Shown piece after piece: positions 39,548-63,522 of a stretch of DNA of 64,000 nt. The translations under genes were made by a program, and so were the position numbers. Each line of letters starts with the position of its first letter. Within the stretch, counting starts at the first letter, position 1. The notes beneath the pieces were generated by a model. It was not told the DNA's origin, searched no databases, and was given only the letters and a program-made list of their open reading frames with translations. This DNA comes from Promethearchaeota archaeon (GTDB lineage: Archaea; Asgardarchaeota; Lokiarchaeia; Sigyniarchaeales; SOKP01), in assembly GCA_048937405.1 (NCBI GenBank), contig JBHLNF010000007.1, forward strand, positions 64,001-128,000, given 5' to 3'.

Positions 39548-40540
39548 TTGACAATTGAAAAGATACTTCAAAAGCTTAACGTTTTATTCAAACAGGCTAA
39601 TTATGAAACATTGGCATTAGGTAATTTTGCAGAAAAAAAAAATAAATTCTGCTTTGATCTTTTAGTCAAAAAGGAGGATTTGGTATTTAGTGTAAAAATT
39701 TTCCCCAATATTGATAATTTAAATCCCAATATCATTCAGGATATCAAATCTTTATCAGCAATCCTCAAATCAAAACCATTATTAATTGGAATTAGGAATA
39801 GATATCAAAATTTAGAAGACAATACAATATATATAAGAGAAAATTTACCTTTTATTACTATTAATACATTTGAAAATATCCTTAATAGCAATTATCCTCA
39901 TATTTTAGCAAGAAGGGGTGGTAAGGTCGTATTTTTAGAGGGATCATTAATGAAAACATTAAGAGAAGATCACTCTATAACAAGAAAAGAACTTTCGGAT
40001 AAATTAGGGATAACGAAAAGAACTGTATGCGCATATGAAAATGAATCTATGAGACCTTCAGAGAAAATTGCAAAAAAAATATCAGAAATATTAGAAAATG
40101 ATGAACTTTTTAAAAAAATTAACATATTTGGATGGCCAATTAAAGTAGATATCAAAAATTTTGAAGAGGAGGAATTGACTGAATTCGAGATTCATGTTCA
40201 AAATATTGTTAAAGATATTGGATTATCTTCATATTGGTATAGAAAAGGTTCTATCCCATTCAAATTATCTCTATATTCTACTTCTGACAAAAAAGAATCA
40301 GAAGGATTTTATCCTCTCTTCTCTGCTATCTCAGAAGAACAAAATAAAATTAATGAAATGAGTTTTAAATGCCTTAAAATGTTCACAGATTTATTCCACA
40401 AAACCTCATTATTTATTATAAACAATGGAATAAAAATACCTGAAATCTTTCATAAAGATAAAATTCCTATTGTCAAAATTAAAAATTTGGAAAAAGTAGA
40501 TGATGAAGAGGAATTCATTGAACTCATCCAAGATTCATGA
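39548..40540 (+). CDS. Archaeal HTH regulator (COG1395-like)
   Basis: CFDLLVK, NIDN, ARRGG, TKRTVCAYEN HTH. Confidence 0.8.
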   Translation: MTIEKILQKLNVLFKQANYETLALGNFAEKKNKFCFDLLVKKEDLVFSVKIFPNIDNLNPNIIQDIKSLSAILKSKPLLIGIRNRYQNLEDNTIYIRENLPFITINTFENILNSNYPHILARRGGKVVFLEGSLMKTLREDHSITRKELSDKLGITKRTVCAYENESMRPSEKIAKKISEILENDELFKKINIFGWPIKVDIKNFEEEELTEFEIHVQNIVKDIGLSSYWYRKGSIPFKLSLYSTSDKKESEGFYPLFSAISEEQNKINEMSFKCLKMFTDLFHKTSLFIINNGIKIPEIFHKDKIPIVKIKNLEKVDDEEEFIELIQDS

Positions 40541-41245
40541 TGGTAGATCACAATTAATTTGTGGGATAGACGAGGCTGGCAGAATTTAATTCACTTCGAA
40601 TTTATGTTAAAAGGCTCTGTCTTAGGCCCAATGGTTATATGTGGTGTTTGTTTTACTAAATTAAATCTTGACACCCTTTCAGAAATTGGAGTCAAAGATT
40701 CAAAAAAGTTATCTCCTCAAAAAAGAAAAAATTTAGCTGAAATTATCAAAAAGAACTGTAATTCATATAAAATAATTGAGGTAACTGCTCAAGAGATTGA
40801 CGAGAGAGAACAAAAAAAAATTTCTCTGAACCGACTTGAGGAGCTTAAAATGGCTGAAATAGTTAATAACTTAAAACCTGATGTTATTTATATAGATGCT
40901 GCTGATGTCAATGAAAAAAGATTTGGAATATCAATAAAAAAATTATTAAATTATAATCCCAAAAACATCATTTCTAAACATAGAGCAGATGATATTTATC
41001 CTATCGTTTCTGCTGGTTCAATAATAGCTAAGGATAGAAGAGATTTCCTAATTGAAGAAATACATAAAAAATATGGAAATTTTGGTTCTGGTTACCCTTC
41101 GGATCCTAGAACGATCAAATTTCTAAGAGATTATATAAAAAAGTATAAAAAAGCTCCTGGAATTGCAAGAAAAACCTGGGATACTACAAAAAAAATAATA
41201 AATGAAGAAGTATCAAATAAGAAAATAACTGAGTTTTTTAGCTAG
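40518..41245 (+). CDS. rnhB: Ribonuclease HII, two exons: join(40518..40582,40612..41245), 232 aa
   Basis: Exon 1 ...LICGIDEAG(R) is in a different frame from exon 2 GSVLGPMV...VKDSKKL...DAAD...VSAGSIIAK...GSGYPSD, PIP box KITEFF; alternative starts at 40500 or 40503. Confidence 0.92.
40583..40611 (+). other. Putative 29-nt BHB-type mRNA intron in rnhB
   Basis: Central helix TGGC/GTTA, bulges AG|A and AA|A, intron stem AATTC/GAATT; removal gives GGC AGA GGC TCT (GRGS). Confidence 0.8.
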
Positions 41246-41937
41246 GTTCTTTTTTTTGCTATGAGAATTAAATGATTAGCGGCATATTTATGAATATCTA
41301 CACTTTCTAAAATATCCAAATTTGCATTTTCAAGGATTTTTTTCTCTTGTGCGTATACACGTTCAGATTTCTTAATACTATCTATAGATTGAGATTTTAT
41401 GATAATAATTAATAATCCATCATCTTTTAGATAATAATCGCAATTTTTTATCGCAATTTGGGCTTGTTGGGGTTGAGCAACATCTTGATATATTAAATCT
41501 ACCCTTGTAAAAATATAATTAGCATAACTTTCTGGATAACGAGCATCTGCTAATATTGGTATGATATTTCCTCTATTAGACGAATTCTGAATCAGTTGTC
41601 TCATACTTCTCTCGGCAAATTCTACACCATAAATAATTCCAGAATCTAAAATATCTGAAAGGTGAGAAATAGTCGTTCCTGAAGACGCGCCCAAATATAA
41701 ACAATTAATATTATCGGTAAAAAAATTTGTTAAAGGTTTTTCTAAAATTAGGGCTGCCAATTTACTTCTAAAAGGATCCCATTCTCTATATTCATTTCCC
41801 TTATGGGTTATTAATCTCTCTCCATATACTCTTTTTCCTTCAATTAAATTTTTTGTATAAAGCTTTAATCTTTCTTGAGGCCCAGAAATAAACACATTAC
41901 TATATTTAGGGTGATTTCTTATCTCTATTTTTGACAT
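41242..41937 (-). CDS. flpA: Fibrillarin rRNA/tRNA 2'-O-methyltransferase
   Basis: VYGE, WDPFRSKLAA, LYLGASSGTT, DVAQP. Confidence 0.96.
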   Translation of the reverse strand: MSKIEIRNHPKYSNVFISGPQERLKLYTKNLIEGKRVYGERLITHKGNEYREWDPFRSKLAALILEKPLTNFFTDNINCLYLGASSGTTISHLSDILDSGIIYGVEFAERSMRQLIQNSSNRGNIIPILADARYPESYANYIFTRVDLIYQDVAQPQQAQIAIKNCDYYLKDDGLLIIIIKSQSIDSIKKSERVYAQEKKILENANLDILESVDIHKYAANHLILIAKKRT

Positions 41938-41954
41938 TTTCGATCTTTTTTATC

Positions 41955-43157
41955 TTATTTTCTTTTTTTTGATTTTTTTTTACTCCTTACTGATTGTCCT
42001 TTTTTAGGGGGATTTGGATATTTTTTTTCAAGTTCTCTTATTTTGTCCTCAATTTCTTTTGAAAAAACATCTGCTATGTATTCTCCAGAAAAAAAATCCA
42101 CTTTTGCTGAAAGTGCAATTTTTCCTGCCACAATACGCGCAATCTTGCCCCGAATCCAAATTTTAGCCGACCTAATTTGATTCCATTGAAATATCAATCC
42201 ATGTTTCGGTCTTTTTTCACCAGTTTTAAGGAATCTATATAATGCTTTTTCAGCTCCTAATAATTGAATTCTTGACGCTGGCATATATGCCAATTTCTGC
42301 AATCCTCCTGCTTTAGCTATTAATTTAGCCCCGATCAAAGAACCAATGAGAAAATTGACGTTTGGAGCTGTATTCTCCATTAATTCTTCTAAATAATTCT
42401 CTAATTGCTGACGATAAGTATCTAGAGAAATTATTTGTTCTGCGTAGCTCTGTAGAATGTTTAAATCAATATCTGCTCCCATCGATTCTATAGCATATTG
42501 TTCCAATCTTTTAACTTTACCTTCATCGAAATCAAAGATTTCTTCAATATTTTTAGAAGTATAATTTTTTCTAGGACCTATTTTTGAAACCATTTCTGCT
42601 AAAATGATATTATCATCAATTATTTTATCAGTTAATTCTGGGAAATGTAAACCATACCATTCCCTAAGATGACTTGAAAATAAACTAATTGATTTTTTAA
42701 TAACATCTAAAACAGTGATAATTTGAGTAATAATATTATCAGAATGTCCGCTTACCTGACTAACTTTTATCCTTGTTAATTCTTCACTAACTATTTTATA
42801 TTGATTAAGAATTTCTTCCCTTGTTTTACTAATTCCAATTTTTTTTAGATTTTCTTCTAAATTTAAGCGGAATTCTTTAAGTTCCATTGATTTAGGCTCA
42901 AGAATGGTCTTAATTTCAAACTTTTTTGAAGATAATGATTCCAATTTTGCATTATCAAATATAAATTCATTAAAACCTGAATTTTTTAATTCTAATATAA
43001 AATTATCAAATGCATTCTGAATTACATCGTTTTCTAATGCACTATAAAATTCAACAATTTTCACATGGTCATCATCAAAATCAATAAAATCTAAGATATT
43101 TCCAGTTTCATCAAATGCAAAAATTCCAATTAACGTATCTGCTATGAAAGACTTCAT
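41955..43157 (-). CDS. nop5: C/D-box RNP protein Nop5 (Nop56/58)
   Basis: EWYGLHFPEL, APN, PASRIQLLGAEKAL, PKHG, RGKIAR. Confidence 0.95.
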   Translation of the reverse strand: MKSFIADTLIGIFAFDETGNILDFIDFDDDHVKIVEFYSALENDVIQNAFDNFILELKNSGFNEFIFDNAKLESLSSKKFEIKTILEPKSMELKEFRLNLEENLKKIGISKTREEILNQYKIVSEELTRIKVSQVSGHSDNIITQIITVLDVIKKSISLFSSHLREWYGLHFPELTDKIIDDNIILAEMVSKIGPRKNYTSKNIEEIFDFDEGKVKRLEQYAIESMGADIDLNILQSYAEQIISLDTYRQQLENYLEELMENTAPNVNFLIGSLIGAKLIAKAGGLQKLAYMPASRIQLLGAEKALYRFLKTGEKRPKHGLIFQWNQIRSAKIWIRGKIARIVAGKIALSAKVDFFSGEYIADVFSKEIEDKIRELEKKYPNPPKKGQSVRSKKKSKKRK

Positions 43158-43236
43158 TTTGAAAGGGTAATTTCTTGTTTATTTTTCCTTCATTAATAAT
43201 TATTATAAAACTATAATCATTATTGTCTTTTAAAAA

Positions 43237-44163
43237 ATGCTAGAAGTAAATCTATCTGGGTTAAAATTAAAATCTCCTATTATTTTAGCCTCGGGAATTT
43301 TAGGAGTGTCTTTTTCTTCGATGAAAAGGGTGTTTGATGCTGGAGCTGGTGCAGTTACTACTAAATCCATTGGACCAAAACCAAGAAAGGGTTATAAAAA
43401 TCCATCTATAATTGAAATATATCCCGGAACTTTTATGAATAGCGTAGGTCTAGGTAATCCTGGTATCAATGAATTTATCTCAGAAATAAAAGAAATGAAA
43501 AAATTTGACATTCCACTAATCGTGAGTGTCTTTGGAAATACTAATGACGTTTATCTTGATGTAGCAGTTAAAGCAGAAAACGCAGGAGCTGATGCTATTG
43601 AAATTAATATTTCTTGTCCGCATGCAGAAGTATCTTCTATAGGGATTGATAAAGGATTAACTTTTGAAATTGTACAATTTTTAAAAAAAAAGCTTAAAGT
43701 TCCTCTTTTTGTCAAGTTAAACCCAAATGTGACAAATTTAGTAGAAATTGCTTTAGCAGCAGAAAAAGGAGGTGCTGATGGGGTAGTTGCTATAAATACC
43801 TTGTCAGCTTTGAAAATTGATATAAATACGAAAAGACCAATCCTATCACATGGAAGTGGAGGTCTTTCTGGCAAATCAATTCATCCCGTTGCTATAAAAA
43901 AAGTATATGACTTATATAAAGTCTTAAAAATTCCAATTATTGGATGTGGCGGTATAGATTCTTGGCAAGATGTAATAGAATTCTTTTTAGCTGGCGCCTC
44001 TGCAGTGCAAATCGGTACAGCGTTATATAAAACAACTGATATTATTTCTGAGATTAATAGCGGTATTTCTCAATATCTTAAAGATAATAATTATAAATCT
44101 ATTAATGATTTAAAAGGATTAGCTCATCAGTTTAAAACTCAGGAGGTACCAGATTTTGACTGA
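43237..44163 (+). CDS. pyrD: Dihydroorotate dehydrogenase family 1B catalytic subunit
   Basis: LASG, TKS, EINISCPH, VKLNPN, INT, GGLSG, GCGGI. Confidence 0.95.
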   Translation: MLEVNLSGLKLKSPIILASGILGVSFSSMKRVFDAGAGAVTTKSIGPKPRKGYKNPSIIEIYPGTFMNSVGLGNPGINEFISEIKEMKKFDIPLIVSVFGNTNDVYLDVAVKAENAGADAIEINISCPHAEVSSIGIDKGLTFEIVQFLKKKLKVPLFVKLNPNVTNLVEIALAAEKGGADGVVAINTLSALKIDINTKRPILSHGSGGLSGKSIHPVAIKKVYDLYKVLKIPIIGCGGIDSWQDVIEFFLAGASAVQIGTALYKTTDIISEINSGISQYLKDNNYKSINDLKGLAHQFKTQEVPDFD

Positions 44164-45010
44164 AAATACAATTAAGACAGTGAAAGTCCGAAACATTATT
44201 GAGGAATGCAAGGATGTAAAAACCCTTGTTTTTAATATGAAAATTAGAAAAAGTGAAAAATATATTACTCCTAAACCTGGACAATTTGTTATGGTATGGA
44301 TACCTGGCATAGATGAGGTACCTATGTCCCTATCTGGATGTGATAGTAATGGAAATTGGTCAATCACAGTTAAAAATGTAGGAGAATGTACAAATGCCAT
44401 GCATAATCTTAATATTGGAGATTATATTGGCATAAGAGGCCCATTAGGCAATCATTTTAAACTAAAAAATCATAATTTAAAAGAAATCTTCTTAATTGGG
44501 GGTGGAATTGGGATGGCTCCATTAAAATACCTCTCTACCCAACTTACTCAGATGAATATTAAACATAGAATTATAGAAGGAGTAAAAAATGAAGATGATA
44601 TTATGTTTAATAACTATTTTCAAGAAGCTATAAGGAATCATTCTGAAATTCACTATTGTACTGATGATGGAAGTTATGGAATAAAAGGTGTTGCTTCTGA
44701 TGTTTTTAAAGAACTGATAAGTAAATCTAATAAAAAAAAACTGTCTAATCTAGTAGTTTATTCCTGTGGTCCAGAAGTTATGCTATTTAAATTATTTCAA
44801 ATATGTCAAGAACAAAAAATTGAGTTTTATGCGAGTCTTGAAAGAATAATGAGATGTGGGTGTGGATTATGTGGTTTATGCGCATTAGATCCATTAGGAT
44901 TACTTGTTTGTAAAGATGGTCCTATATTTAATTCAAAACAATTAGAAAAAATTAAAGACTTCGGAAAATATCAGCGTGATTTTACAGGAAAAAAAATTTT
45001 AGTTAATTGA
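44156..45010 (+). CDS. pyrK: Dihydroorotate dehydrogenase electron-transfer subunit
   Basis: PGQF, RGPLG, GGGIGMAP, CGPEVM, MRCGCGLCGLC, VCKDGPIF. Confidence 0.95.
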   Translation: MTENTIKTVKVRNIIEECKDVKTLVFNMKIRKSEKYITPKPGQFVMVWIPGIDEVPMSLSGCDSNGNWSITVKNVGECTNAMHNLNIGDYIGIRGPLGNHFKLKNHNLKEIFLIGGGIGMAPLKYLSTQLTQMNIKHRIIEGVKNEDDIMFNNYFQEAIRNHSEIHYCTDDGSYGIKGVASDVFKELISKSNKKKLSNLVVYSCGPEVMLFKLFQICQEQKIEFYASLERIMRCGCGLCGLCALDPLGLLVCKDGPIFNSKQLEKIKDFGKYQRDFTGKKILVN

Positions 45011-45252
45011 TTTAATTTTATTGTTTTTCTCTTTTTGATTTTTTTTTAAATATATTAGATTTCGTGAATATCCTCTCTAATTCTGATATCTCTTTTTTCT
45101 AATTTTTTTCTAAAAGAACAAAATCAAATCTAATCAAAGCTTACCAAAAAATCACATCTTACAGAATATTAATAATTTAAACATTAATTTTATAATATTA
45201 ATAAATTAAATAAAATTGATAGAAATTATAATAGAGTTTAATAAATAATTCC

Positions 45253-45822
45253 ATGTGCTTCTATATTACATCAACGCTTCCAAAAAAGGTTAAATTAGAA
45301 GATTTAGAAGAAGTTTTTAAAAAATATAATATGGCTTTTAAATCGATAAAGAATGTATCAATTCAAGATCAATTAAGACCAGAGGAACTTTATTTTAGAG
45401 CAACTAATGCATATTGTGATTGTAATACTATATTGGGTGCCCTAAACACTTCTGAAGAATATAAAAAATTGCTAGATTCTGAAAAGATAAGGAGTTTAAA
45501 AAAGAAAAAGTGGACATCGGAACAAATTGATATCTGGATCCATGAAAAAATTAAAGGGAAAAACCCAAAATTTGAGAAACTTACTGAGATCGAAAAAGAA
45601 AATGAAATAAAAAGATGGAAAGACTTTATTCAAGAGATATTAGCATCAAAAAAGGTTAAGAGAATTGGAATTTTAAAGCACTGGTATAATTCAAGTCTTT
45701 CTGAGGAAAAATTTAAAATTAGAGAATTTAAACAAATACAAATAGACCGATTAAATAAAAATTTACTTTTAAATTTAGAAGAAGATATTCTTTATGAGTT
45801 TATCCCACTTTACAAATATTAA
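45253..45822 (+). CDS. Hypothetical protein (possible Cys/His metal site)
   Basis: MC...YCDC...HWY; first cargo gene after pyrK. Confidence 0.65.
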   Translation: MCFYITSTLPKKVKLEDLEEVFKKYNMAFKSIKNVSIQDQLRPEELYFRATNAYCDCNTILGALNTSEEYKKLLDSEKIRSLKKKKWTSEQIDIWIHEKIKGKNPKFEKLTEIEKENEIKRWKDFIQEILASKKVKRIGILKHWYNSSLSEEKFKIREFKQIQIDRLNKNLLLNLEEDILYEFIPLYKY

Positions 45823-45986
45823 TGATATATAATCGTATTTAGACCATTTTTTCAAGAGTAATAATTTATTGAATAATAATCTTTTAAACAATTATTAAAA
45901 GCTTTTTTCATTTTATAGACTGAGGAATAACGATTTTCAGGTTTATAGGTCACAGTTTTTCGAAAGAATTAATTAAAACAATCTAA

Positions 45987-46127
45987 CGCGGTTTATGAGC
46001 ATTAGATCAATTATAATTGCTGGACTATAAGGATGGACAGATTTTTAATCTGGAAACTCTCAAAGAAATTCAGGATTTTGGGAAGTATAAAAGAGATTTT
46101 ACTGGTAAAAAGATATCATTAGAATAG
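45987..46127 (+). pseudogene. Relic pyrK 3' end, copy 1
   Basis: GL*ALDQL*LLDYKDGQIFNLETLKEIQDFGKYKRDFTGKKISLE* aligns without gaps to PyrK GLCALDPLGLLVCKDGPIFNSKQLEKIKDFGKYQRDFTGKKILVN*. Confidence 0.93.
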
Positions 46128-46130
46128 TTT

Positions 46131-47414
46131 TTAAGTCTTTTTTGTTGGTCGAAGCCCTAAAATAGCTTCGCTTATTTTATTACCAATCTTAACAATTCCT
46201 AGCATATTAAGCAAGATATCAAAGAATAAATAAGGTTTCACAGGATTTTCATCATTTTTTAGAATCTCAGCTAATTTGGAATGAAACTCAAAGCTTAATG
46301 CCTCAACCTTCTTGTATTGGTCCTCAGATATAAACTGATAGTATATCAAGTTCTTCTCGAGTGCCTCCATAAGTACACTAATTATCTCTATCATTGGTAA
46401 TTCTTCCATAGATACAGATGTCAGGAGATGACTCTCTGTCGCTTCTAAATAACTATTAATGTAGTCTGAAATCATCTTAAGTTTTTTATATTCATAAGAG
46501 AATTTAGGTATATTTGCCAGAAGAGGTTCCCAATTATTCTCTCTTATTGCCTTTTCTAAATCAAATTCCTTTTTTTCCAATAGCAAATCAAAATCTTTAC
46601 TTAGCTTATAATATTTTCTCTTGATATTGCCAGGTTGTACCTCATCTTCTTTTGTGTATGATTGAATTAATCCCAATCGAATTAAATCTCTTGTGCAACG
46701 AGAAAGTTGTGCTTTACTTTTACCTGTATGATAAGACATTTCTTTAAGGCTTAATTCCTTATAAATTTTCAGTAATATGAATATTCTGAAGTCTAATTCA
46801 TTCCGAAAAACATCTACAAACTGCCTTTTAGGATATACCCTTTTAATTATTTTCGCAAAATTATTAAAAAGATCTACTATTTCTTTTTCTTTTTCTGAAG
46901 ATATTTCTATCGCTCCGATTAGATTTCTTGTGGAGGCTAACTTATTACCATGTTCGATAGAGACCTCTCTCTCATCTTGAAGATCTGCTTTAGTTCCAAT
47001 CATTAGAATCGGAATACTCACATTTCTTTTGGTTTTTTTAAATAATTTTAGCCACCATTCTAAATCGGCTAGACTAGATTTATCGGTTATATCATAAACA
47101 AATATAGCCCCCGCAGCACCTACAGTAAAAGGTTCAAAATAAGGTTGTGGTTTTTTTAATTTACCTTCCCTTTTTGTTTTTGTTAATTTAAGATCCTTAA
47201 ATTTTTCTGTACCTGTGAGTTCCCAAACATGCAATATTAAGTCTATATCATCTATTTTTAATGTCTTCTGATAGAATGTTACTCCTAAAGTTAATTTTGG
47301 GGGAGCACCTAAACTTTTATTATCAGCTTCTTTAAAATATTTACTTAATAATGTGGATTTTCCCACTCCACTTTCTCCAAAAACACATATTTTATAGATT
47401 TGTGGTTTTTTCAT
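46131..47414 (-). CDS. Rab/Ras-like small GTPase fused to a winged-helix domain
   Basis: GESGVGKS, WELTG, VYDIT, GTKAD, EISS; then LSLKEMSYHTGKSKAQLSRCTRDLIRLGLI...RKYYKL. Confidence 0.85.
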   Translation of the reverse strand: MKKPQIYKICVFGESGVGKSTLLSKYFKEADNKSLGAPPKLTLGVTFYQKTLKIDDIDLILHVWELTGTEKFKDLKLTKTKREGKLKKPQPYFEPFTVGAAGAIFVYDITDKSSLADLEWWLKLFKKTKRNVSIPILMIGTKADLQDEREVSIEHGNKLASTRNLIGAIEISSEKEKEIVDLFNNFAKIIKRVYPKRQFVDVFRNELDFRIFILLKIYKELSLKEMSYHTGKSKAQLSRCTRDLIRLGLIQSYTKEDEVQPGNIKRKYYKLSKDFDLLLEKKEFDLEKAIRENNWEPLLANIPKFSYEYKKLKMISDYINSYLEATESHLLTSVSMEELPMIEIISVLMEALEKNLIYYQFISEDQYKKVEALSFEFHSKLAEILKNDENPVKPYLFFDILLNMLGIVKIGNKISEAILGLRPTKKT

Positions 47415-47545
47415 TTTTTTATTACCATTTTATTTTTATTTAATTTCATAAAAAATGTAACGTTTCATATATATAAATATTATGCAACGCTGGAAATCAT
47501 CCCTAATCATTACAAAATCAACTTTAAAAATTTTTAAAAATCTTT

Positions 47546-47638
47546 AAAGATGACCCGATTTTCGATTTGGAATCGCTAAAAAAGATTCAAGATTTCGGAA
47601 AATCTCAAAGAGAATTCACAGGTAAAAAAATAAAAATT
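47546..47638 (+). pseudogene. Relic pyrK 3' end, copy 2
   Basis: KDDPIFDLESLKKIQDFGKSQREFTGKKIKI vs PyrK KDGPIFNSKQLEKIKDFGKYQRDFTGKKILV. Confidence 0.9.
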
Positions 47639-47642
47639 TGCT

Positions 47643-49049
47643 TTATTGACTGAGGATACTACCTACATCGTTAATTAATTTTTTATAAAATTGATCTTCT
47701 TCCATCTCATGTTTTAATATTCCTTGTACTCTTCGAATCCGCATCTTTAATCCCGGACTTAAGTCTGTTTCTCTTAAATATATTGCTAAATATGGTTTCT
47801 TTTCATTCATAGCAAGATGAATTTCATCTTGAGTATTATCCGATTCCATCACATAAGGAGATATAAATGAAAGAAATAAACTGCATCCTAATAATTTTTC
47901 TGCAATAGTATTACACCAATCTGTACTTAAGGGAATTCCTTCATCATACCATATTCGAAAACCTTTATTATCTAATTTTTGTAGAATGGGGTATACCTCC
48001 GCTTTATCTTTATGAGTATAACTTACGAAAATAAATTTTTTATCTCCCATATATGCTGAGAAAGGAGGTTCAACTGATAATTCTGCTGTGGTTTGCTTTA
48101 AATTGCTTTTAAGATAAGTTTCCAAATCCTTTTCGTTTTTGGGTAGACTTGGATCATTAAGATCACCAAATTTCTTTAAAATTTTTTGAACATGCTTAGG
48201 ATTGTTCATTATTTTAGAAATAACATCATAATTATCTAATATTAATTTTGTTGGCTTTCCAGATTCTGCTCTTTCTTTTGGGATTTTTACAATTAAGCTT
48301 ACAACCTTTTTTGTTACCCAATTCTCAACACCTGTTTCTTCATTAAACAAATCTTTTGTCGTTTTACCGGCATATTCACCCCCCCACTCTAAAGTAACCA
48401 GCTCATCATTAATAAATATTTTATAATCACCTTCTAGCATAATAGCTGGATCTTCTTTGAACAAACTTTGAGTAGCTACAAGATCTATTCTTTTTTGGAT
48501 TGATTTAAAAAATTCTTTACTAACTTTGAACGGTAAATTATCTGATGTAATGATTTTTTTTCCTATTAGCATGAGATAAATTGCCGTCTGGTGCAAACAT
48601 AATCCTTTTTTTTTTCCAATAATACAAGAACAGCTTCTTTTTACAGCACCGTCGACAATTTGAAGGGAAGCTTTTTGAGATCCATATTTACTTGAAAACC
48701 AGACGTTATATCCTTTTCCACCACCTATAATAACAGCATTTTGAATTTTTTCGACCTTATGCTCTCCGCTAATTAGTGATACTGCATTTAATAATAATTG
48801 TTCTGCAAAATCCTTTTCAAAATCTTTGTATAATCTCTTTTTTTCATTATCTTCTAGTGAGGAGTCGAGAAAAGTCACTAATTCCTCCTTTTTAAGGTTT
48901 GAATATCCTTTCAAATTCTTTTCTTTGCTAATAGCGCCTTGATTATATCCCTTTATTATCTCCTTAATTTTTGGAATGGTTAGTGATTTCAAAAATGTCT
49001 CAAATGTGAAAGGCTCTAATCCTTTTACTTTTGGTTTCTTTTTTCCCAT
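47643..49049 (-). CDS. SAP/HeH-like, SWIM zinc finger and C-terminal TIR domain protein
   Basis: LTIPKIKEII..GYSNLKKEELV; CSC-x8-CLH; FVSYTHKD...WYDEGI...QDEI. Confidence 0.82.
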   Translation of the reverse strand: MGKKKPKVKGLEPFTFETFLKSLTIPKIKEIIKGYNQGAISKEKNLKGYSNLKKEELVTFLDSSLEDNEKKRLYKDFEKDFAEQLLLNAVSLISGEHKVEKIQNAVIIGGGKGYNVWFSSKYGSQKASLQIVDGAVKRSCSCIIGKKKGLCLHQTAIYLMLIGKKIITSDNLPFKVSKEFFKSIQKRIDLVATQSLFKEDPAIMLEGDYKIFINDELVTLEWGGEYAGKTTKDLFNEETGVENWVTKKVVSLIVKIPKERAESGKPTKLILDNYDVISKIMNNPKHVQKILKKFGDLNDPSLPKNEKDLETYLKSNLKQTTAELSVEPPFSAYMGDKKFIFVSYTHKDKAEVYPILQKLDNKGFRIWYDEGIPLSTDWCNTIAEKLLGCSLFLSFISPYVMESDNTQDEIHLAMNEKKPYLAIYLRETDLSPGLKMRIRRVQGILKHEMEEDQFYKKLINDVGSILSQ

Positions 49050-49127
49050 ATTTTATCAAATTCATTTTCCATAAAAAGTATTCCTATTGACTATTAAAGA
49101 ATATTTTTTAGATAAAAATTAAAATAA

Positions 49128-49235
49128 TTTGCCCTATCTCATATTGGAATCTTTTTAATTAGAGACTAATTACTTTATATCTCAGAAGTCCTTAGTAATT
49201 TGGAAGATTTTAGAAAATATTAACATAAATTTCAT
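49128..49235 (+). pseudogene. Relic pyrK 3' end, copy 3 (heavily decayed)
   Basis: FALSHIGIFLIRD*LLYISEVLSNLEDFRKY*HKF stays in register with CALDPLGLLVCKDGPIFNSKQLEKIKDFGKYQRDF. Confidence 0.6.
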
Positions 49236-49370
49236 AAAGAAGGCAATATAAAATCGATTTTGATATCAAAAAGTAAAATTATGAACTTTAATTAATTGAG
49301 TTGTTTCTTGGATATTTAGAATTCTTTTTAAGATTTAAAAAAGATAAAAATTTTTTAAAGTGTTTTTTAG

Positions 49371-50246
49371 CTATACTATTTCGCTATAAAGGGGAGATCC
49401 GGCTTTCATATAACGATTCATTTGACGTAGAGAGGCAACTTCTTTGCCCCCTTCTTTTTCTTTTAAAATAGCATCGTACCAGTAATATTCTGTCTTTCGA
49501 CTAACACCCGCACATATTACTTTTCCAGTTGCTTCATAAGGAATCCCAACCATTACTGGTCCATTAATATTTTGAATTTCAGTAGCCCCATAAAATGGTA
49601 CACCTTGGGTCCTCGCAATGTCTAAGATATTTGAGTTTAGAGACATCGTCCAAAATATAGCTGTCGGTGATAGAATTGATTTTCCCCATGGTGAATTTCC
49701 CTTATAGTAATCAAGATGATCAGTTATCGTTTTTAATCCTTCATTAGCATCCTCTTGGAAGATTAAGACATCTTTCATATTAAGATCGTCTCCTACTTTC
49801 ATTCCTGCTAAAATTCGCAGTTCCTCTGGTTTACTATTTTTAAGTTCTATACTTTGAAGGTAAGATAATTCTTTTGGTTCACCAACTGCTGCTGTACCTG
49901 TTGCAACGACTTGTCCGTTTGGCATCTCAACTCGCGCTTCTACTTGAACATCTTTAGACTCCTCAGAAGGCATCTTAATAATCCCTCTTACCTTTTCTTT
50001 ATGAGTTGTAGCAAATGTGTAATACATACTTAATGATCCTCTTTCAAACCATCGCTGCCCAAAAATTTCAAGTAATAACGGAGCGAATAAACTCAAATGG
50101 ATTGTTCCAGGAATTGTCCCACCTCGCATTCCTACTTTTTTTGCAGTAGCATCATCATGAATTGATGTTTTTAAATTGCTCCAAAGGTTTTCTGGGGCTC
50201 TCCAAGCGCCATACATAAATCCATCTTTAATAGTAATTTCAGTCAT
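49371..50246 (-). CDS. Double hot-dog-fold (MaoC-like) protein
   Basis: SIHDDATAKKVGMRGGTIPGTIH resembles the MaoC hydratase motif. Confidence 0.7.
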   Translation of the reverse strand: MTEITIKDGFMYGAWRAPENLWSNLKTSIHDDATAKKVGMRGGTIPGTIHLSLFAPLLLEIFGQRWFERGSLSMYYTFATTHKEKVRGIIKMPSEESKDVQVEARVEMPNGQVVATGTAAVGEPKELSYLQSIELKNSKPEELRILAGMKVGDDLNMKDVLIFQEDANEGLKTITDHLDYYKGNSPWGKSILSPTAIFWTMSLNSNILDIARTQGVPFYGATEIQNINGPVMVGIPYEATGKVICAGVSRKTEYYWYDAILKEKEGGKEVASLRQMNRYMKAGSPLYSEIV

Positions 50247-50535
50247 TTAAATAACCTAAAAATTATTTACTGCTATAAGAAAATTATGTCTAATCTATTA
50301 AATCTTTTGATTCAAATTATCGAAATAAAGGATAAAAAATATTCTTAAATGATTATTTCCCTAAATTGCGGAAGATAAATAAAAAAAAGTAAAATCTTCT
50401 TTTTATTGGAGTTCTAATACAAATTAGGTTGATATTCTCTCTATTTTTACTTTAACAATTTTCTAGATAAATTCTATCATTATACAAACCAATACTCCTA
50501 ATTGTGGAGAGGAATTAAGAAAAAAATTGTTTTAG

Positions 50536-51567
50536 TCAATCTGGTTTAAGAAGATCATATACTATCTCTGGTTCAAGTGGCTGATATGGTGTCTTCTTGA
50601 AGTGTTCTTTGCATAATTCATAAAGAATTTTATTAAACGGAGCATCCACTCCAAGTAAATTAGCTAATTTTATAAAATAACCATTAAGGGATTCTAGTTC
50701 TGATCGACCTTTTTGACGAATTATCATATCCTGTATCATACTGTTTGGCCCCCTATCTATGAAAAATCTCGAAAATATTTTATCTGCTATTTCGGTGGGT
50801 AAATTTACAGCATCTTGTAACTCTTTCCAAGGTAAAAAACCTGGTAAACTGTATTCATGATACCCAGCAGCTTGAACTATATTGATACCTTCATTCAATG
50901 TAGTGACAATGATCTCTCTCAGAATTGAGATTGAGTTTGGACTAGGATTTTTATGATTGATTAGTGTTAAAATGGAATTTAAAAGGTTGAAAATCATTTT
51001 ACCATGAATAGCATCCTGTATTTTCTCTGAGATTTGAACTTTCGTAGCTTTACTTAATATTTCACACATTTCTTTTAGTTCTTTTTGTAAACTATTGTCA
51101 AGCGTACCAAGAATGAGGTATCCCCGATTTAAGTATCCAAAAATGCCTGGTTCATCCCTCCATGCCGATATCATTATAACACCGTATATAATTTTAGAAA
51201 AATATTTAGGCAACACTTTTTGGTTTTCAGTACCATTTTGTAATGTGATAATGATTGGGTTATCTCCTAATTTCTCATGAATATCTTTCGCAACTTCCTC
51301 CAAGTCATAATTCTTTACAACTATGATTACGACATTAGTTGAAGGCTTTTCGTTTAAATCTTGAATAATTTTCACAGGAATTGGATTTTTCGGGGGATTT
51401 TCTTTTCTGTATAGAATTATTCCTTTATTCATCATAACTTTGGCGTTTTGACCACGTGCCAACAGATAAACTTTATCATAATAAGGTGATAGCCATGCAC
51501 CAATTGAAGCGCCTATTGCACCCGCGCCATATATCACAATCTCATAATCCTTATTCAAATTTGACAT
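50536..51567 (-). CDS. panE: Ketopantoate reductase family protein
   Basis: GAGAIG, VKNYD, LQNG, K...N, SMIQD, SELESLNG. Confidence 0.85.
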   Translation of the reverse strand: MSNLNKDYEIVIYGAGAIGASIGAWLSPYYDKVYLLARGQNAKVMMNKGIILYRKENPPKNPIPVKIIQDLNEKPSTNVVIIVVKNYDLEEVAKDIHEKLGDNPIIITLQNGTENQKVLPKYFSKIIYGVIMISAWRDEPGIFGYLNRGYLILGTLDNSLQKELKEMCEILSKATKVQISEKIQDAIHGKMIFNLLNSILTLINHKNPSPNSISILREIIVTTLNEGINIVQAAGYHEYSLPGFLPWKELQDAVNLPTEIADKIFSRFFIDRGPNSMIQDMIIRQKGRSELESLNGYFIKLANLLGVDAPFNKILYELCKEHFKKTPYQPLEPEIVYDLLKPD

Positions 51568-51741
51568 GTCAAATATAGTTGTACTTTAACTTTAAATTTT
51601 AATAATTATCTAACTGAAAATAAGAAATTAATAGATTAGAAAGAGAAATCATATTATAAAATCTTTATATTAGAACTTAAATCAAAAAGTATAATTTTCA
51701 TGAATGTTTAAATCATTTTAACAAATTGATTAATTTTAAGA

Positions 51742-53401
51742 ATGGAACAATCAGAGAATATAAACTTAAGTAAAGTAAAGAAAATAGCAAGGGAAATAAT
51801 TGAATATCTGTTAATAAATCCTAATACTTCCCGCAGAAAAATTACAAACCTTAAAGGACAAATTGGCAAAAAATATAATTATGATCGAGTAATAAAAAAT
51901 GCCACAATCTTGTCTCATGCAACAAATGAAGAAAAAGAGATTATCACTAAATTATTGAAGAGAAGAACAACAAGAACTATTTCAGGAGTTTCAGTAATTG
52001 CTATTATGACAAAACCTCTTCCTTGTCCTGGAACATGTATTTATTGTCCAGGTGTAAAATCCCAACCAGGAGAAAAAGTTGCCCAATCATATACAGGAAG
52101 AGAACCCGCAGCTATGAGATCAATATATAATAATTATGATCCCTACAAGCAAGTTCAATCTCGAATTAAAGATTTAGAAGCAATTGGGCATAAAGTGGAC
52201 ATGGTTTACGCTTGGTTGTATTCCACCATAAAAGATTGAACTTATTATAATGGGAGGGACATTTTTATCAATAGATTCAGAATATCAAAAACAATTCGTA
52301 AAAGGAGCATTAGAGGGAATAATAGAACAGAAAACAAATACCATAGAAGAAGCTAAGATATTAGCAGAAAAGGCTAAGCGAAGAGTTATAGGAATTACAG
52401 TTGAAACAAGACCAGACTATTGTAAAGAAACCCATATTGATAATATGTTACACTTTGGAACTACTCGAGTCGAAATTGGTATTCAAACAATTTATAATGA
52501 AATCTATGATTTGATAAAAAGAGGACATACTACTGCTGATAGCATTGAATCGATAAGACTTGCTAAAGATGCTGGGTTAAAGATCAATGCTCATATAATG
52601 CCAAATTTACCGGGTTCCAATTATTCTCTAGATTTAAAACTATTTGCCAATTTGTTCTCTATACCAGATTATCGCCCAGATATGTTAAAGATTTATCCCA
52701 CTCTGGTAATAAATGGAACTGAATTATATGATTGGTGGAAAAGTGGTAAATATATGCCCTATTCTGATAAAGAATTAATAGAACTAATTGTAAAAGCTAA
52801 AATCGATCTCCCTCCTTATGTTAGAATTCAAAGAATTATGCGAGATATCCCTGCTACCTTAATTGAAGCAGGTTGTAAGAATAGTAACTTAAGACAGTTA
52901 GTACAAGAACGATTAAAAGAAACTAATCAAATTTGTAAATGTATTAGGTGCAGAGAATATGGAATCAGTAAAAGAAAAGATATTCTCAATGAAGATTCAT
53001 TTGATGATATAAAACTATATCGTTTGGATTATGATGCCTCGCTAGGAAAAGAAATTTTCTTATCTTATGAAAATAAAAAAGAAGGTTATTTAATTGGATA
53101 TTTACGCTTAAGAAAGCCTTCTGAATTTGCTCATAGACCTGAATTGAATGATGGAAAAACAATGATTGTAAGGGAGATTAAAGTCGTTGGTGAATTAGTT
53201 CCTAAAGACATGAAACCAAATAGATATACTCAAATCCAACATAGAGGATATGGTAAACTTTTAATGGAAAATGCTGAGAAAATATCGTTTAAAGATTTCA
53301 AAATGAGTAAATTAGCTGTAATTAGTGGTCTTGGCGCAAAAGACTGGTTTTATGATTTAGGATATAAACCAGATGGTGTATATGTCTCGAAAATTCTTTA
53401 A
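51742..53401 (+). CDS. elp3: tRNA U34 acetyltransferase Elp3, two exons: join(51742..52200,52232..53401), 542 aa
   Basis: RTISGVSVIAIM, CPGTCIYCPG, QSYTGREPA in exon 1; (K)IELIIMGGTF, ETRPD, LKIYP, RIMRDIP, QHRGYG in exon 2. Confidence 0.95.
52201..52231 (+). other. Putative 31-nt BHB/BHL-type mRNA intron in elp3
   Basis: Central helix GTGG/CCAT, bulges AC|A and AA|A, intron stem TGG/CCA plus TAC/GTA; removal gives GHKVD-KIELIIMGGTF. Confidence 0.82.
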
Positions 53402-63277: not shown

Positions 63278-63381
63278 CGGGCTATGAGGGAATTTCGCGC
63301 TCACCATTCTTTAAAGAGCGATTCGAACCCCCGACCTGCCGGTTAAGAGCCGGTTGCGCTACCTGCCTGCGCCAATAGCCC
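63278..63381 (-). tRNA. tRNA-Lys(CUU) with 30-nt non-canonical intron at 59/60 (63292-63321)
   Basis: GGGCTAT/ATAGCCC acceptor stem, CT-CTT-AA loop; BHB with TTCG/CGAA helix, bulges AA|T and AT|T, intron stem CGCTC/GAGCG. Confidence 0.93.
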
Positions 63382-63420: not shown

Positions 63421-63522
63421 CGCAGATGGAGGGACTCGAACCCCCGAGCGCTCACGCGCACCGGCTCACTCGGTTGTGAAAAACACTCAAGGCCGGCGTC
63501 TTACCAGCTAGGCTACATCTGC
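63421..63522 (-). tRNA. tRNA-Ser(UGA) with 19-nt canonical 37/38 intron (63467-63485)
   Basis: GCAGATG/CATCTGC acceptor stem, long variable arm; BHB with CTTG/CGAG helix, bulges AG|T and TG|A, intron stem GTT/AAC. Confidence 0.93.

What the first reader, a model, noticed from the sequence alone, without database searches (positions are those of the whole stretch)
40518..53401. Candidate tRNA-type (BHB) mRNA intron system: two protein-coding genes in one 64-kb Asgard window
Seen: rnhB and elp3 each carry a 29- or 31-nt non-triplet insertion inside a conserved motif. Both fold with the 3-nt bulge / 4-bp helix / 3-nt bulge geometry that the two tRNA introns here also show (63292-63321, 63467-63485). 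In both, cutting after the second nt of each bulge restores the frame and motif exactly; both introns start with A and share the 3' bulge AA|A. Established: the archaeal splicing endonuclease EndA cleaves BHB/BHL motifs, and the crenarchaeal cbf5 intron is the classic and almost only mRNA example. Inference: this lineage may splice many mRNAs with EndA/RtcB, tying RNA-metabolism enzymes to tRNA-splicing capacity, loosely like eukaryotic HAC1/XBP1 non-spliceosomal splicing. Pipelines would call these genes pseudogenes.
Basis: partly seen in the sequence, partly recalled or inferred. Interest (0 to 1): 0.95.

Follow-up and report, generated by a model that had tools for sequence, protein, structure and literature searches.

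The report
tRNA-type mini-introns in two Asgard genes
Two essential-looking genes of a Loki-type Asgard archaeon (RNase HII and the tRNA-modifying enzyme Elp3) are each broken by a ~30-base insert shaped like an archaeal tRNA intron, and comparison with over 100 related genomes indicates the inserts are cut out of the messenger RNA, something so far documented inside a coding sequence for only one archaeal gene (cbf5).

Summary
Observation confirmed. rnhB carries a 29-nt insert and elp3 a 31-nt insert at the stated places. Removing them rebuilds GIDEAGR|GSVLGP and GHKVD|KIELIIMGGTF exactly.

Both genes are single copy. The rnhB insert sits at the same site in 60 alleles from eight genera (28, 29 or 30 nt, always with an in-frame stop) and is cleanly absent in 29. 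The elp3 insert occurs in 5 of 117 family genomes plus further metagenome contigs, always 31 nt.

Both fold as bulge / 4-bp helix / bulge next to a hairpin, and base changes compensate each other. Exons are under strong purifying selection (dN/dS 0.09-0.19). Natural variants (G076, G077) exclude a cut one base later. The genome encodes a two-subunit EndA and RtcB, and two tRNAs in the window carry introns of the same geometry.

Best reading (0.85): EndA/RtcB-spliced mRNA introns. No RNA data exist, so splicing itself is inferred.

The elp3 intron sits inside recombination patches, which suggests lateral spread. The proposed regulatory link to RNA metabolism is unsupported, because the hosts are functionally diverse. 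This scan had already noted such introns on other pieces of this genome. I re-verified three by motif, making five genes. My genome-wide structural scan had no statistical power.

The parts
40500..40582 (+). rnhB exon 1 (27 codons plus AG of the Arg codon). It encodes ...ICGIDEAG(R) with the first catalytic Asp and Glu, and overlaps the 3' end of upstream ORF 39548-40540.
   Evidence: ICGIDEAGR is kept in all 60 intron-bearing alleles.
40583..40611 (+). rnhB intron, 29 nt in the BHB register (cuts AG|A and AA|A). 5' bulge 40581-40583, hairpin h' 40584-40605, H 3' strand 40606-40609 pairing with exon 40577-40580, 3' bulge 40610-40612. In-frame TAA at 40587-40589.
40612..41245 (+). rnhB exon 2 (last base of the Arg codon, then GSVLGPMV... 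to the stop).
   Evidence: Pfam RNase_HII positions 9-199 of 199, E 1e-40. Only copy in the genome.
51742..52200 (+). elp3 exon 1 (153 codons: ELP3_N and the radical-SAM Cys motif, ending GHKVD). The H 5' strand is 52195-52198.
52201..52231 (+). elp3 intron, 31 nt (cuts AC|A and AA|A). 5' bulge 52199-52201, hairpin 52202-52225, H 3' strand 52226-52229, 3' bulge 52230-52232. No closing exon-exon helix (relaxed HBh').
52232..53401 (+). elp3 exon 2 (KIELIIMGGTF..., the rest of the radical-SAM domain, Radical_SAM_C and the acetyltransferase-like C-terminus).
   Evidence: Only Elp3 in the genome.
63278..63381 (-). tRNA-Lys(CUU) with a 30-nt intron at 63292-63321 in the T-loop (59/60). H = UUCG/CGAA, bulges AA|U and AU|U, hairpin stem CGCUC/GAGCG, and the T-stem serves as the outer helix.
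63421..63522 (-). Class II tRNA, read as Ser(UGA), with a 19-nt intron at 63467-63485 (37/38). H = CUUG/CGAG, bulges AG|U and UG|A.

Best explanation
Both inserts are archaeal bulge-helix-bulge (tRNA-type) introns inside coding sequence.

Proposed mechanism. The pre-mRNA folds so that four exon bases just upstream of the 5' splice site pair with four intron bases just upstream of the 3' splice site. This presents two 3-nt bulges on opposite strands. [quoted passage not shown] RtcB then joins the exons and probably circularises the 29- or 31-nt intron. The joined mRNA encodes full-length RNase HII and Elp3. Unspliced mRNA ends at a stop codon in or just after the intron.

The rnhB intron is old and widespread in this Promethearchaeia (Loki-type) family, with presence and absence mixed within genera. 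The elp3 intron is rare and appears to move between lineages by homologous recombination together with flanking exon sequence.

Shown: the inserts, their geometry, covariation, selection on the exons, and the presence of the enzymes. Inferred: cleavage by EndA, ligation by RtcB, and the recombinational spread.
For: (1) Exact restoration of frame and motif. Intron-less relatives define the same junctions...GCAGGAAGA|GGCCCA... in 29 rnhB alleles and ...GTTGAT|AAAATT... in about 50 sequenced elp3 alleles.

(2) rnhB distribution: 60 intron-bearing alleles in genera g1, g19, g21, g22, g23, g27, g28 and g29. Lengths are 30 nt (57 alleles), 29 nt (2) and 28 nt (1), with exon frames intact. All 60 have an in-frame stop inside the intron.

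(3) rnhB covariation on 45 alleles: 88.6% of cells paired against 26-44% when partners are slid. There are 60 double-change cells against 14.6+-3.2 in shuffles. Both variable H pairs covary with synonymous exon sites (UG/CG/GC/UA and UA/AU/CG/UG). All 9 hairpin pairs show compensatory changes.

(4) elp3: 7 distinct alleles, all 31 nt. 91.7% of cells are paired, and 5 of 8 hairpin pairs show compensatory changes. The G077 hairpin is a different sequence with the same geometry.

(5) Register: in G076 rnhB and G077 elp3, a cut one base later would give Ser or a stop in an invariant motif. The BHB cut gives Arg and Asp-Lys.

(6) dN/dS is 0.09-0.19 between intron-bearing alleles. Both genes are single copy.

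(7) Enzymes: EndA paralogues of 197 aa (Tyr/His/Lys present) and 200 aa, and RtcB 2.5 kb before the window. Asgard (alpha-beta)2 EndA carries the L1 loop linked to broad specificity (PMC5829648).

(8) Two tRNAs in the window have introns of the same geometry, one at the non-canonical T-loop site.

(9) The inserts stand in many independent assemblies from NCBI, JGI, ENA and Logan.
Against: No spliced RNA, circular intron or cleavage assay exists for any of these genes.

Folding energy of the single G000 sequences is not better than shuffles.

In G000 the rnhB central helix has two G-U pairs. In 5-7 of 45 alleles one H pair is mismatched.

The rnhB exon-exon helix shows no covariation, and one of its pairs is broken in 28 of 45 alleles. 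elp3 has no such helix at all.

The elp3 H helix never varies, which says nothing for or against it.

The cut position within the bulge rests on my recollection of the EndA-RNA structure literature and on the tRNAs here. It was not tested.
Confidence: 0.85

Rival explanations
1. The genes are pseudogenes, inactivated by small insertions and now decaying.
For: Unspliced, both frames are broken. Gene callers emit fragments, one of them named 'hypothetical protein'.
Against: dN/dS is 0.09-0.19 and all exon frames are intact across 60 rnhB and 7 elp3 alleles that have diverged to synonymous saturation. There is no second copy of either gene. The helices keep pairing through compensatory changes.
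Confidence: 0.02
2. The mRNA is not spliced. The ribosome copes by translational recoding: bypassing (as in T4 gene 60 or mitochondrial byp elements), frameshifting or stop read-through.
For: Each insert has a hairpin and an early stop, as bypass elements do.
Against: rnhB inserts of 28, 29 and 30 nt coexist, so no single frame rule works. Take-off and landing codons do not match: AGA versus AAA before GGC in rnhB, and GAC versus UAA before AAG in elp3. Read-through would put about 10 residues inside the catalytic GIDEAGRG motif. Covariation involves an exon-intron helix that places both junctions in 3-nt bulges, which bypassing does not require.
Confidence: 0.03
3. These are split genes. Each half is translated separately and the pieces assemble, for example elp3 from 51742-52239 and from ATG 52250.
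For: An in-frame ATG lies 6 codons into elp3 exon 2. Databases hold both halves as separate proteins.
Against: The six codons between the 3' splice site and that ATG (KIELII or KIELIV) are conserved as coding sequence in all intron-bearing alleles. rnhB exon 1 would be a 29-residue peptide carrying the catalytic Asp and Glu. Nothing in this model explains the conserved BHB geometry.
Confidence: 0.03
4. The inserts are removed at the RNA level, but by something other than EndA and RtcB (an unknown nuclease or ligase, or a ribozyme).
For: No enzyme assay exists. The elp3 motif is relaxed.
Against: The geometry equals that of the tRNA introns in the same window. 28-31 nt is too short for group I or II introns, and no Rfam family matches. 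Broad-specificity (alpha-beta)2 EndA is known to cut relaxed motifs, including the cbf5 pre-mRNA (PMC2738675, PMC5829648).
Confidence: 0.05
5. Assembly or binning artefact.
For: The genome is a 29-contig assembly with 5.7% estimated contamination.
Against: The same inserts occur in dozens of independently assembled genomes and in contigs from NCBI, JGI, ENA and Logan. DNA contigs of four runs from two studies carry the rnhB insert and its 30-nt variant.
Confidence: 0.01

Closest known systems
BHB intron in the cbf5 (pseudouridine synthase) pre-mRNA of Crenarchaeota (Watanabe 2002; Yoshinari 2006; Yokobori 2009, PMC2738675)
   Same: A short intron (16-44 nt in cbf5) inside a coding sequence, with a BHB or relaxed BHB at the exon-intron borders. 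It is found in lineages with a hetero-oligomeric broad-specificity EndA, encodes no protein, and is gained and lost among related species.
   Different: The phylum differs (Asgard / Promethearchaeia). The host genes differ, and there are several per genome (rnhB and elp3 here; AMP phosphorylase, PFK and rubredoxin elsewhere). The size class is very narrow at 28-31 nt. For elp3 there is evidence that the intron travels in recombination patches. cbf5 splicing was shown experimentally; these introns have no such evidence.
BHB intron in the 5' UTR of HVO_1309 mRNA, Haloferax volcanii (PMC7714728)
   Same: A non-tRNA, non-rRNA EndA substrate in an mRNA.
   Different: It lies in the untranslated leader and does not interrupt a reading frame. 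It is a single case in that genome.
[quoted passage not shown]
   Same: Same motif, same predicted enzymes and similar lengths. The tRNA-Lys T-loop intron in this window is 30 nt.
   Different: The host RNA is an mRNA and the exons must stay in frame. The exon strand of the central helix is made of codons, and its synonymous sites covary with the intron.
HAC1/XBP1 unconventional splicing and RTCB-dependent 'SOS splicing' of transposons from animal mRNAs (PMC12779559)
   Same: Spliceosome-independent cut-and-ligate removal of a short structured insert from an mRNA, sealed by a tRNA ligase.
   Different: A different nuclease is involved (Ire1 or unknown, not EndA). HAC1/XBP1 splicing is a regulated stress switch, and nothing here indicates regulation. 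This is an analogy only.

Membership tests
Archaeal bulge-helix-bulge (EndA-type) intron | Two 3-nt bulges on opposite strands separated by a 4-bp helix | tested here: met
   rnhB: UGGC/GUUA with bulges AGA and AAA. elp3: GUGG/CCAU with bulges ACA and AAA. The rnhB H helix is 92.8% paired over 45 alleles, and two of its pairs change on both sides. The elp3 H helix is invariant in 7 alleles.
Archaeal bulge-helix-bulge (EndA-type) intron | Flanking helices h (exon-exon) and h' (intron hairpin) of the canonical hBHBh' form | tested here: inconclusive
   h' is met in both genes, with compensatory changes in 9 of 9 (rnhB) and 5 of 8 (elp3) pairs. For rnhB, h is 87% paired but never covaries and one pair is mostly broken; the exon Glu codon is GAG in 60 of 60 intron-bearing alleles against 12 of 29 intron-less ones. 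For elp3, h is absent, giving a relaxed HBh' / BHL-like motif.
Archaeal bulge-helix-bulge (EndA-type) intron | Cuts at symmetric positions in the bulges give a functional ligated RNA | tested here: met
   Cutting after bulge base 2 restores GIDEAGR|G and GHKVD|K. It matches the intron-less alleles base for base. It is the register that keeps Arg in G076 and avoids a stop in G077.
Archaeal bulge-helix-bulge (EndA-type) intron | The genome encodes a splicing endonuclease able to cut relaxed or non-tRNA motifs, and an RtcB ligase | tested here: met
   There are two PF01974 genes above cut-off, of 197 and 200 aa, so an (alpha-beta)2 architecture. RtcB scores 565 bits. The broad specificity of this particular enzyme was not assayed; it rests on PMC5829648 and on the T-loop tRNA intron here.
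Archaeal bulge-helix-bulge (EndA-type) intron | Excision and exon ligation observed in RNA (spliced junction, circular intron) | not testable with these tools
   No RNA run holds the locus.
Self-splicing group I / group II introns or inteins | Ribozyme core of hundreds of nt, or an in-frame protein-splicing domain | tested here: not met
   The inserts are 28-31 nt, carry stops and are not always a multiple of 3. No Rfam family matches at the gathering threshold.

The most novel reading that the evidence does not exclude
A family of uniform ~30-nt BHB micro-introns has colonised conserved sites of many protein-coding genes in one family of Loki-type Asgard archaea. Expression of core enzymes therefore depends on the tRNA-splicing machinery. 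The introns spread between species by allelic recombination patches rather than by an intron-encoded homing enzyme. This would be a protein-dependent mRNA-intron system in the closest prokaryotic relatives of eukaryotes.
Probability: 0.5. Interest if true: 0.9.

Novelty: new variant of a known kind. Interest (0 to 1): 0.85.

Why it matters
In the papers I could search, an EndA-type intron inside an archaeal coding sequence is documented for a single gene, cbf5, in Crenarchaeota (PMC7714728, PMC2738675). Here at least five unrelated genes of one Asgard genome carry them. One of them (rnhB) is kept across eight genera.

If splicing is confirmed, four things follow:
- mRNA maturation by the tRNA-splicing enzymes is a routine part of gene expression in a lineage close to the eukaryotic ancestor.
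- Annotation pipelines systematically miscall such genes as fragments or pseudogenes. This distorts metabolic reconstructions of Asgard genomes.
- The elp3 recombination patches offer a concrete, testable answer to how protein-free archaeal introns arrive at new sites. A 2026 preprint on Asgard tRNA introns calls this the central open problem.
- Codons that form the exon strand of the splicing helix are visibly constrained, which is a rare case of RNA structure shaping synonymous sites.

Tried and rejected
(1) Genome-wide de novo scan of G000. I required a 4/4-paired H, two closing hairpin pairs, L of 18-60, and excision joining two open frames. The control was the same structures with the 3' cut shifted by 1-2 nt. 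There was no excess in the true frame class at any stringency (for example L27-33, E<=-2: 45 against 28-38). Adding the bulge consensus gave 154 against 143 and 129. Adjacent-gene junctions in this 29% GC genome swamp the signal. The scan did recover rnhB, elp3 and the AMP phosphorylase intron, but it cannot give a count.

(2) RNA evidence: no RNA holder is listed for this stretch.

(3) Laying DNA contigs of four runs. The unitigs are fragmented. They carry the inserts and the 30-nt rnhB variant. No contig joined across either insert was listed, but the tables were truncated.

(4) Single-sequence thermodynamics gave z-scores near 0, so this is not informative.

(5) RNAalifold on its own preferred a continuous exon-exon helix and the hairpin for rnhB, and did not draw the 4-bp H. 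Counting pairs on the stated structure was needed.

(6) blastn of five intron sequences against the genome found only chance matches of 17 nt or less. The introns are not a repeated sequence family.

(7) ARAGORN without the intron option finds no tRNA in the window. With it, ARAGORN calls the class II tRNA Thr(UGU) with boundaries 2 nt off. I rejected this because the long variable arm fits Ser.

(8) No target-site duplication or terminal inverted repeat of a DNA transposon is seen at either insert.

(9) Literature searches for Asgard or Lokiarchaeal mRNA BHB introns found none.
Full report
WHAT IS THERE

The window is G000:C25:64001-128000 of a 4.47-Mb, 29-contig, 29% GC genome. Its relatives are deposited as Promethearchaeota / Promethearchaeia archaeon, the Loki-type Asgard lineage.

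rnhB starts at ATG 40500 and reads ...ICGIDEAGR. A 29-nt insert follows, and the frame resumes with GSVLGPMVICG... to the stop at 41245.

elp3 reads from 51742 to ...IGHKVD at 52200. A 31-nt insert follows (52201-52231). The frame resumes with KIELIIMGGTF... to 53401.

Pfam puts rnhB exon 2 on RNase_HII profile positions 9-199 of 199. elp3 exon 1 matches ELP3_N, and it contains the radical-SAM cysteine motif. elp3 exon 2 matches Radical_SAM positions 62-156 plus Radical_SAM_C. Neither half of either gene is a complete domain. Both genes are the only copies in the genome.

GEOMETRY

In both genes, four exon bases ending two bases before the 5' junction pair with four intron bases ending two bases before the 3' junction.
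- rnhB: UGGC/GUUA.
- elp3: GUGG/CCAU.

This leaves 3-nt bulges of AG|A and AA|A in rnhB, and AC|A and AA|A in elp3. The rest of each intron is a hairpin of 22 or 24 nt. For elp3 this half of the motif is the minimum-energy fold.

rnhB also has an imperfect exon-exon helix. elp3 has none, so elp3 is a relaxed HBh' motif.

Such a register (4/4 H pairs plus two closing hairpin pairs) occurs at 0.42% of random positions in this genome. Folding energy alone is unremarkable, with z-scores of -0.06 and -0.24.

The two tRNAs at the end of the window confirm the local rule.
- A class II tRNA, read as Ser(UGA), has a 19-nt intron at 63467-63485 (37/38), with H = CUUG/CGAG.
- tRNA-Lys(CUU) has a 30-nt intron at 63292-63321 in the T-loop, with H = UUCG/CGAA. 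Its T-stem serves as the outer helix.

A T-loop intron implies an endonuclease of broad specificity.

COMPARATIVE EVIDENCE, rnhB

I read the junction in 89 alleles from relatives.
- 60 alleles, from eight genera of the same family, carry an insert at exactly this site.
- 29 alleles have none. These are 15 from other families and 14 from the same family, including one congener, G105. They read ...GG(N) (A/C)G(N)|GG(N) CC(N)... without a gap.

Insert lengths are 30 nt (57 alleles), 29 nt (G000 and G066) and 28 nt (G155). The exons keep the frames that only precise excision reconciles. Every one of the 60 inserts has an in-frame stop.

On a 45-allele alignment the hBHBh' structure is 88.6% paired, against 26-44% when partners are slid by 1-3 columns. 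There are 60 double-change cells against 14.6+-3.2 in shuffles.

The two variable pairs of the central helix join the third positions of the Ala and Gly codons to intron bases. They run through UA/AU/CG/UG and UG/CG/GC/UA. All nine hairpin pairs show compensatory changes, and some hairpins (G076, G077, G154) share almost no sequence with that of G000.

The exon-exon helix is built from conserved codons and does not covary. However, the Glu codon is GAG in 60 of 60 intron-bearing alleles and in 12 of 29 intron-less ones, and Arg is AGR in 59 of 60. This fits a structural constraint on the exon, with the caveat that relatives are not independent.

COMPARATIVE EVIDENCE, elp3

Of 117 family genomes with the gene, the exon-2 frame opens exactly at the junction in only five: G000 and G024 (genus g1), G082 and G083 (g27), and G077 (g23). 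I inspected the junction sequence in these five and in about 50 of the others. The remainder were classified only by open-frame length.

Exon-1 fragments clustering with the G000 fragment led to two further alleles in JGI, ENA and Logan contigs. All seven distinct introns are 31 nt, with GUGG/CCAU, AC|A (or AU|A, AC|U) and AA|A. The hairpin keeps pairing through compensatory changes in 5 of 8 pairs. Overall 91.7% of cells are paired, against 20-64% when slid. About 50 sequenced intron-less alleles read GT(N)GA(Y)|AA(R)AT(N) without a gap.

REGISTER

Each intron begins with the same base that begins the downstream exon, so in G000 two cut registers give the same product. Natural variants decide against the later register.
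- In G076 rnhB the intron starts with U. A cut one base later would give Ser in the invariant DEAG-R-G motif, while the BHB cut gives Arg.
- In G077 elp3 the intron starts with U. A cut one base later would create a stop, while the BHB cut gives D|K.

A cut one base earlier is not excluded by coding alone (it would give Lys in rnhB and Glu in elp3). The BHB geometry is what selects the stated register.

NOT PSEUDOGENES, ARTEFACTS OR RECODING

dN/dS between intron-bearing alleles is 0.09-0.19, with synonymous sites near saturation. All exon frames are intact.

The inserts are present in dozens of independent assemblies. They are also in DNA contigs of four runs from two studies, which in addition carry the 30-nt congener variant of the rnhB intron.

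Translational bypassing or frameshifting cannot accommodate 28-, 29- and 30-nt versions, and matching take-off and landing codons are lacking.

Independent translation of the halves is contradicted by the conserved KIELI(I/V) codons between the elp3 3' junction and the first ATG.

The inserts are too short for ribozyme introns, and no Rfam family matches.

ENZYMES

The genome has two EndA paralogues: one of 197 aa with the Tyr/His/Lys triad, and one of 200 aa without the His. This is the (alpha-beta)2 type that PMC5829648 reports for Asgard archaea, with the L1 loop associated with broad substrate range.

A full-length RtcB lies 2.5 kb upstream of the window.

HOW THE elp3 INTRON MOVES (INFERENCE)

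G083 (intron) and G084 (no intron) are 95-97% identical over several kb on both sides. They fall to 75-79% in a patch that runs from about 1.2 kb upstream of the intron to about 100 nt downstream of it.

G000 and its closest relative G101 (no intron) are about 90% identical around the gene but 68-76% identical from the elp3 start to the intron. In that same patch G000 is 90% identical to G024 (intron), against a background of about 78%.

All five genome alleles with the intron share a Ser-Arg codon pair, TCT-CGA, 40 nt upstream. Only 1 of 49 intron-less alleles has it.

The simplest reading is that an intron-bearing allele segment is exchanged by homologous recombination. The direction (gain by import or loss by replacement) is not resolved, and formal recombination tests were not run.

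OTHER GENES

Earlier notes of this scan report similar introns elsewhere in this genome. I re-found three by sequence.
- AMP phosphorylase: C28:498455-498484, 30 nt, DKHS|TGGV. My scan recovered this one independently.
- Phosphofructokinase: C25:149016-149046, 31 nt, GGG|DCPGLN.
- Rubredoxin: C7:432998-433026, 29 nt, CPVCGV|GKDMFEKIEG.

All are 29-31 nt with bulges A(G/C)|(A/U). The hosts are functionally unrelated, which argues against a specific tie to RNA metabolism. My structural genome scan could not separate true introns from gene-junction noise, so the total number is unknown.

KNOWN AND NEW

The mechanism class is known. The cbf5 pre-mRNA intron of Crenarchaeota is 16-44 nt, often has a relaxed motif, and is gained and lost (PMC2738675). 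There is also a 5'-UTR intron in Haloferax. As of 2020 these were described as the only mRNA cases (PMC7714728). A 2026 preprint on Asgard tRNA introns does not mention mRNAs. Six further searches found no report of Asgard mRNA BHB introns.

What is new here:
- the lineage;
- several host genes per genome;
- the tight 28-31-nt size class;
- the depth of covariation evidence;
- the recombination patches.

Public gene calls already hold the fragments as separate proteins (228, 165 and 383 aa, with one neighbour named 'hypothetical protein'), so the misannotation is real.

VERDICT

Splicing itself remains inferred. Confidence is 0.85 that both inserts are EndA/RtcB-type mRNA introns.

Noticed in passing
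G000:C25:60212-61519 (minus strand), 2.5 kb before window position 1: The genome's only RtcB RNA ligase gene (565 bits, 519-aa open frame) lies on the same contig, about 43 kb from rnhB.
   Followed up: partly
window 51640-52340; L168/L169 (G083/G084), L170 (G101), L171 (G024): elp3 is a mosaic. Pairs of genomes that are 90-97% identical around the gene drop to 68-79% in a patch that ends about 100 nt downstream of the intron. In the same patch G000 resembles the otherwise more distant intron-bearing G024. This suggests intron transfer or replacement by homologous recombination.
   Followed up: partly
window 63278-63381 (minus strand): tRNA-Lys(CUU) has a 30-nt intron in the T-loop (59/60). 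Rfam sees only a truncated tRNA below the gathering score (28.0 against 29 bits), and ARAGORN misses it entirely.
   Followed up: yes
window 63421-63522 (minus strand): ARAGORN -i calls this tRNA Thr(UGU), with the intron 2 nt to the left. The long variable arm and the BHB register both fit Ser(UGA) with the intron at 63467-63485.
   Followed up: partly
G000:C28:498455-498484; G000:C25:149016-149046 (= window coordinate 85016, beyond its end); G000:C7:432998-433026: Three more 29-31-nt BHB-type inserts lie in AMP phosphorylase (DKHS|TGGV), phosphofructokinase (GGG|DCPGLN) and rubredoxin (CPVCGV|GKDMF). I checked motif restoration and H pairing only.
   Followed up: partly
L112 (G105:C291:4378-4548): One congener (G105) lacks the rnhB intron precisely, whereas every other congener allele I inspected (about 36) carries it. 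Its flanking codons (GAT GAA GCA GGA CGT) look like those of intron-less alleles of other genera. This may be allele replacement rather than simple deletion.
   Followed up: no
window 40569-40582 and orthologous positions in 89 alleles: Synonymous sites next to the rnhB intron look constrained. Glu is GAG in 60 of 60 intron-bearing alleles against 12 of 29 intron-less ones, and Arg is AGR in 59 of 60 against CGN in 7 of 29. Relatives are not independent.
   Followed up: partly
window 40500-40540: The rnhB start (ATG 40500) overlaps the last 41 nt of the upstream ORF 39548-40540 in another frame. The exon-1 region is therefore doubly coding.
   Followed up: no
window 40559-41245, 51742-52239, 52250-53401: Public protein collections hold exactly these three fragments as separate called proteins. 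An orthologous exon-1 fragment is named 'hypothetical protein ACFFB0_00925 [Promethearchaeota archaeon]'.
   Followed up: yes
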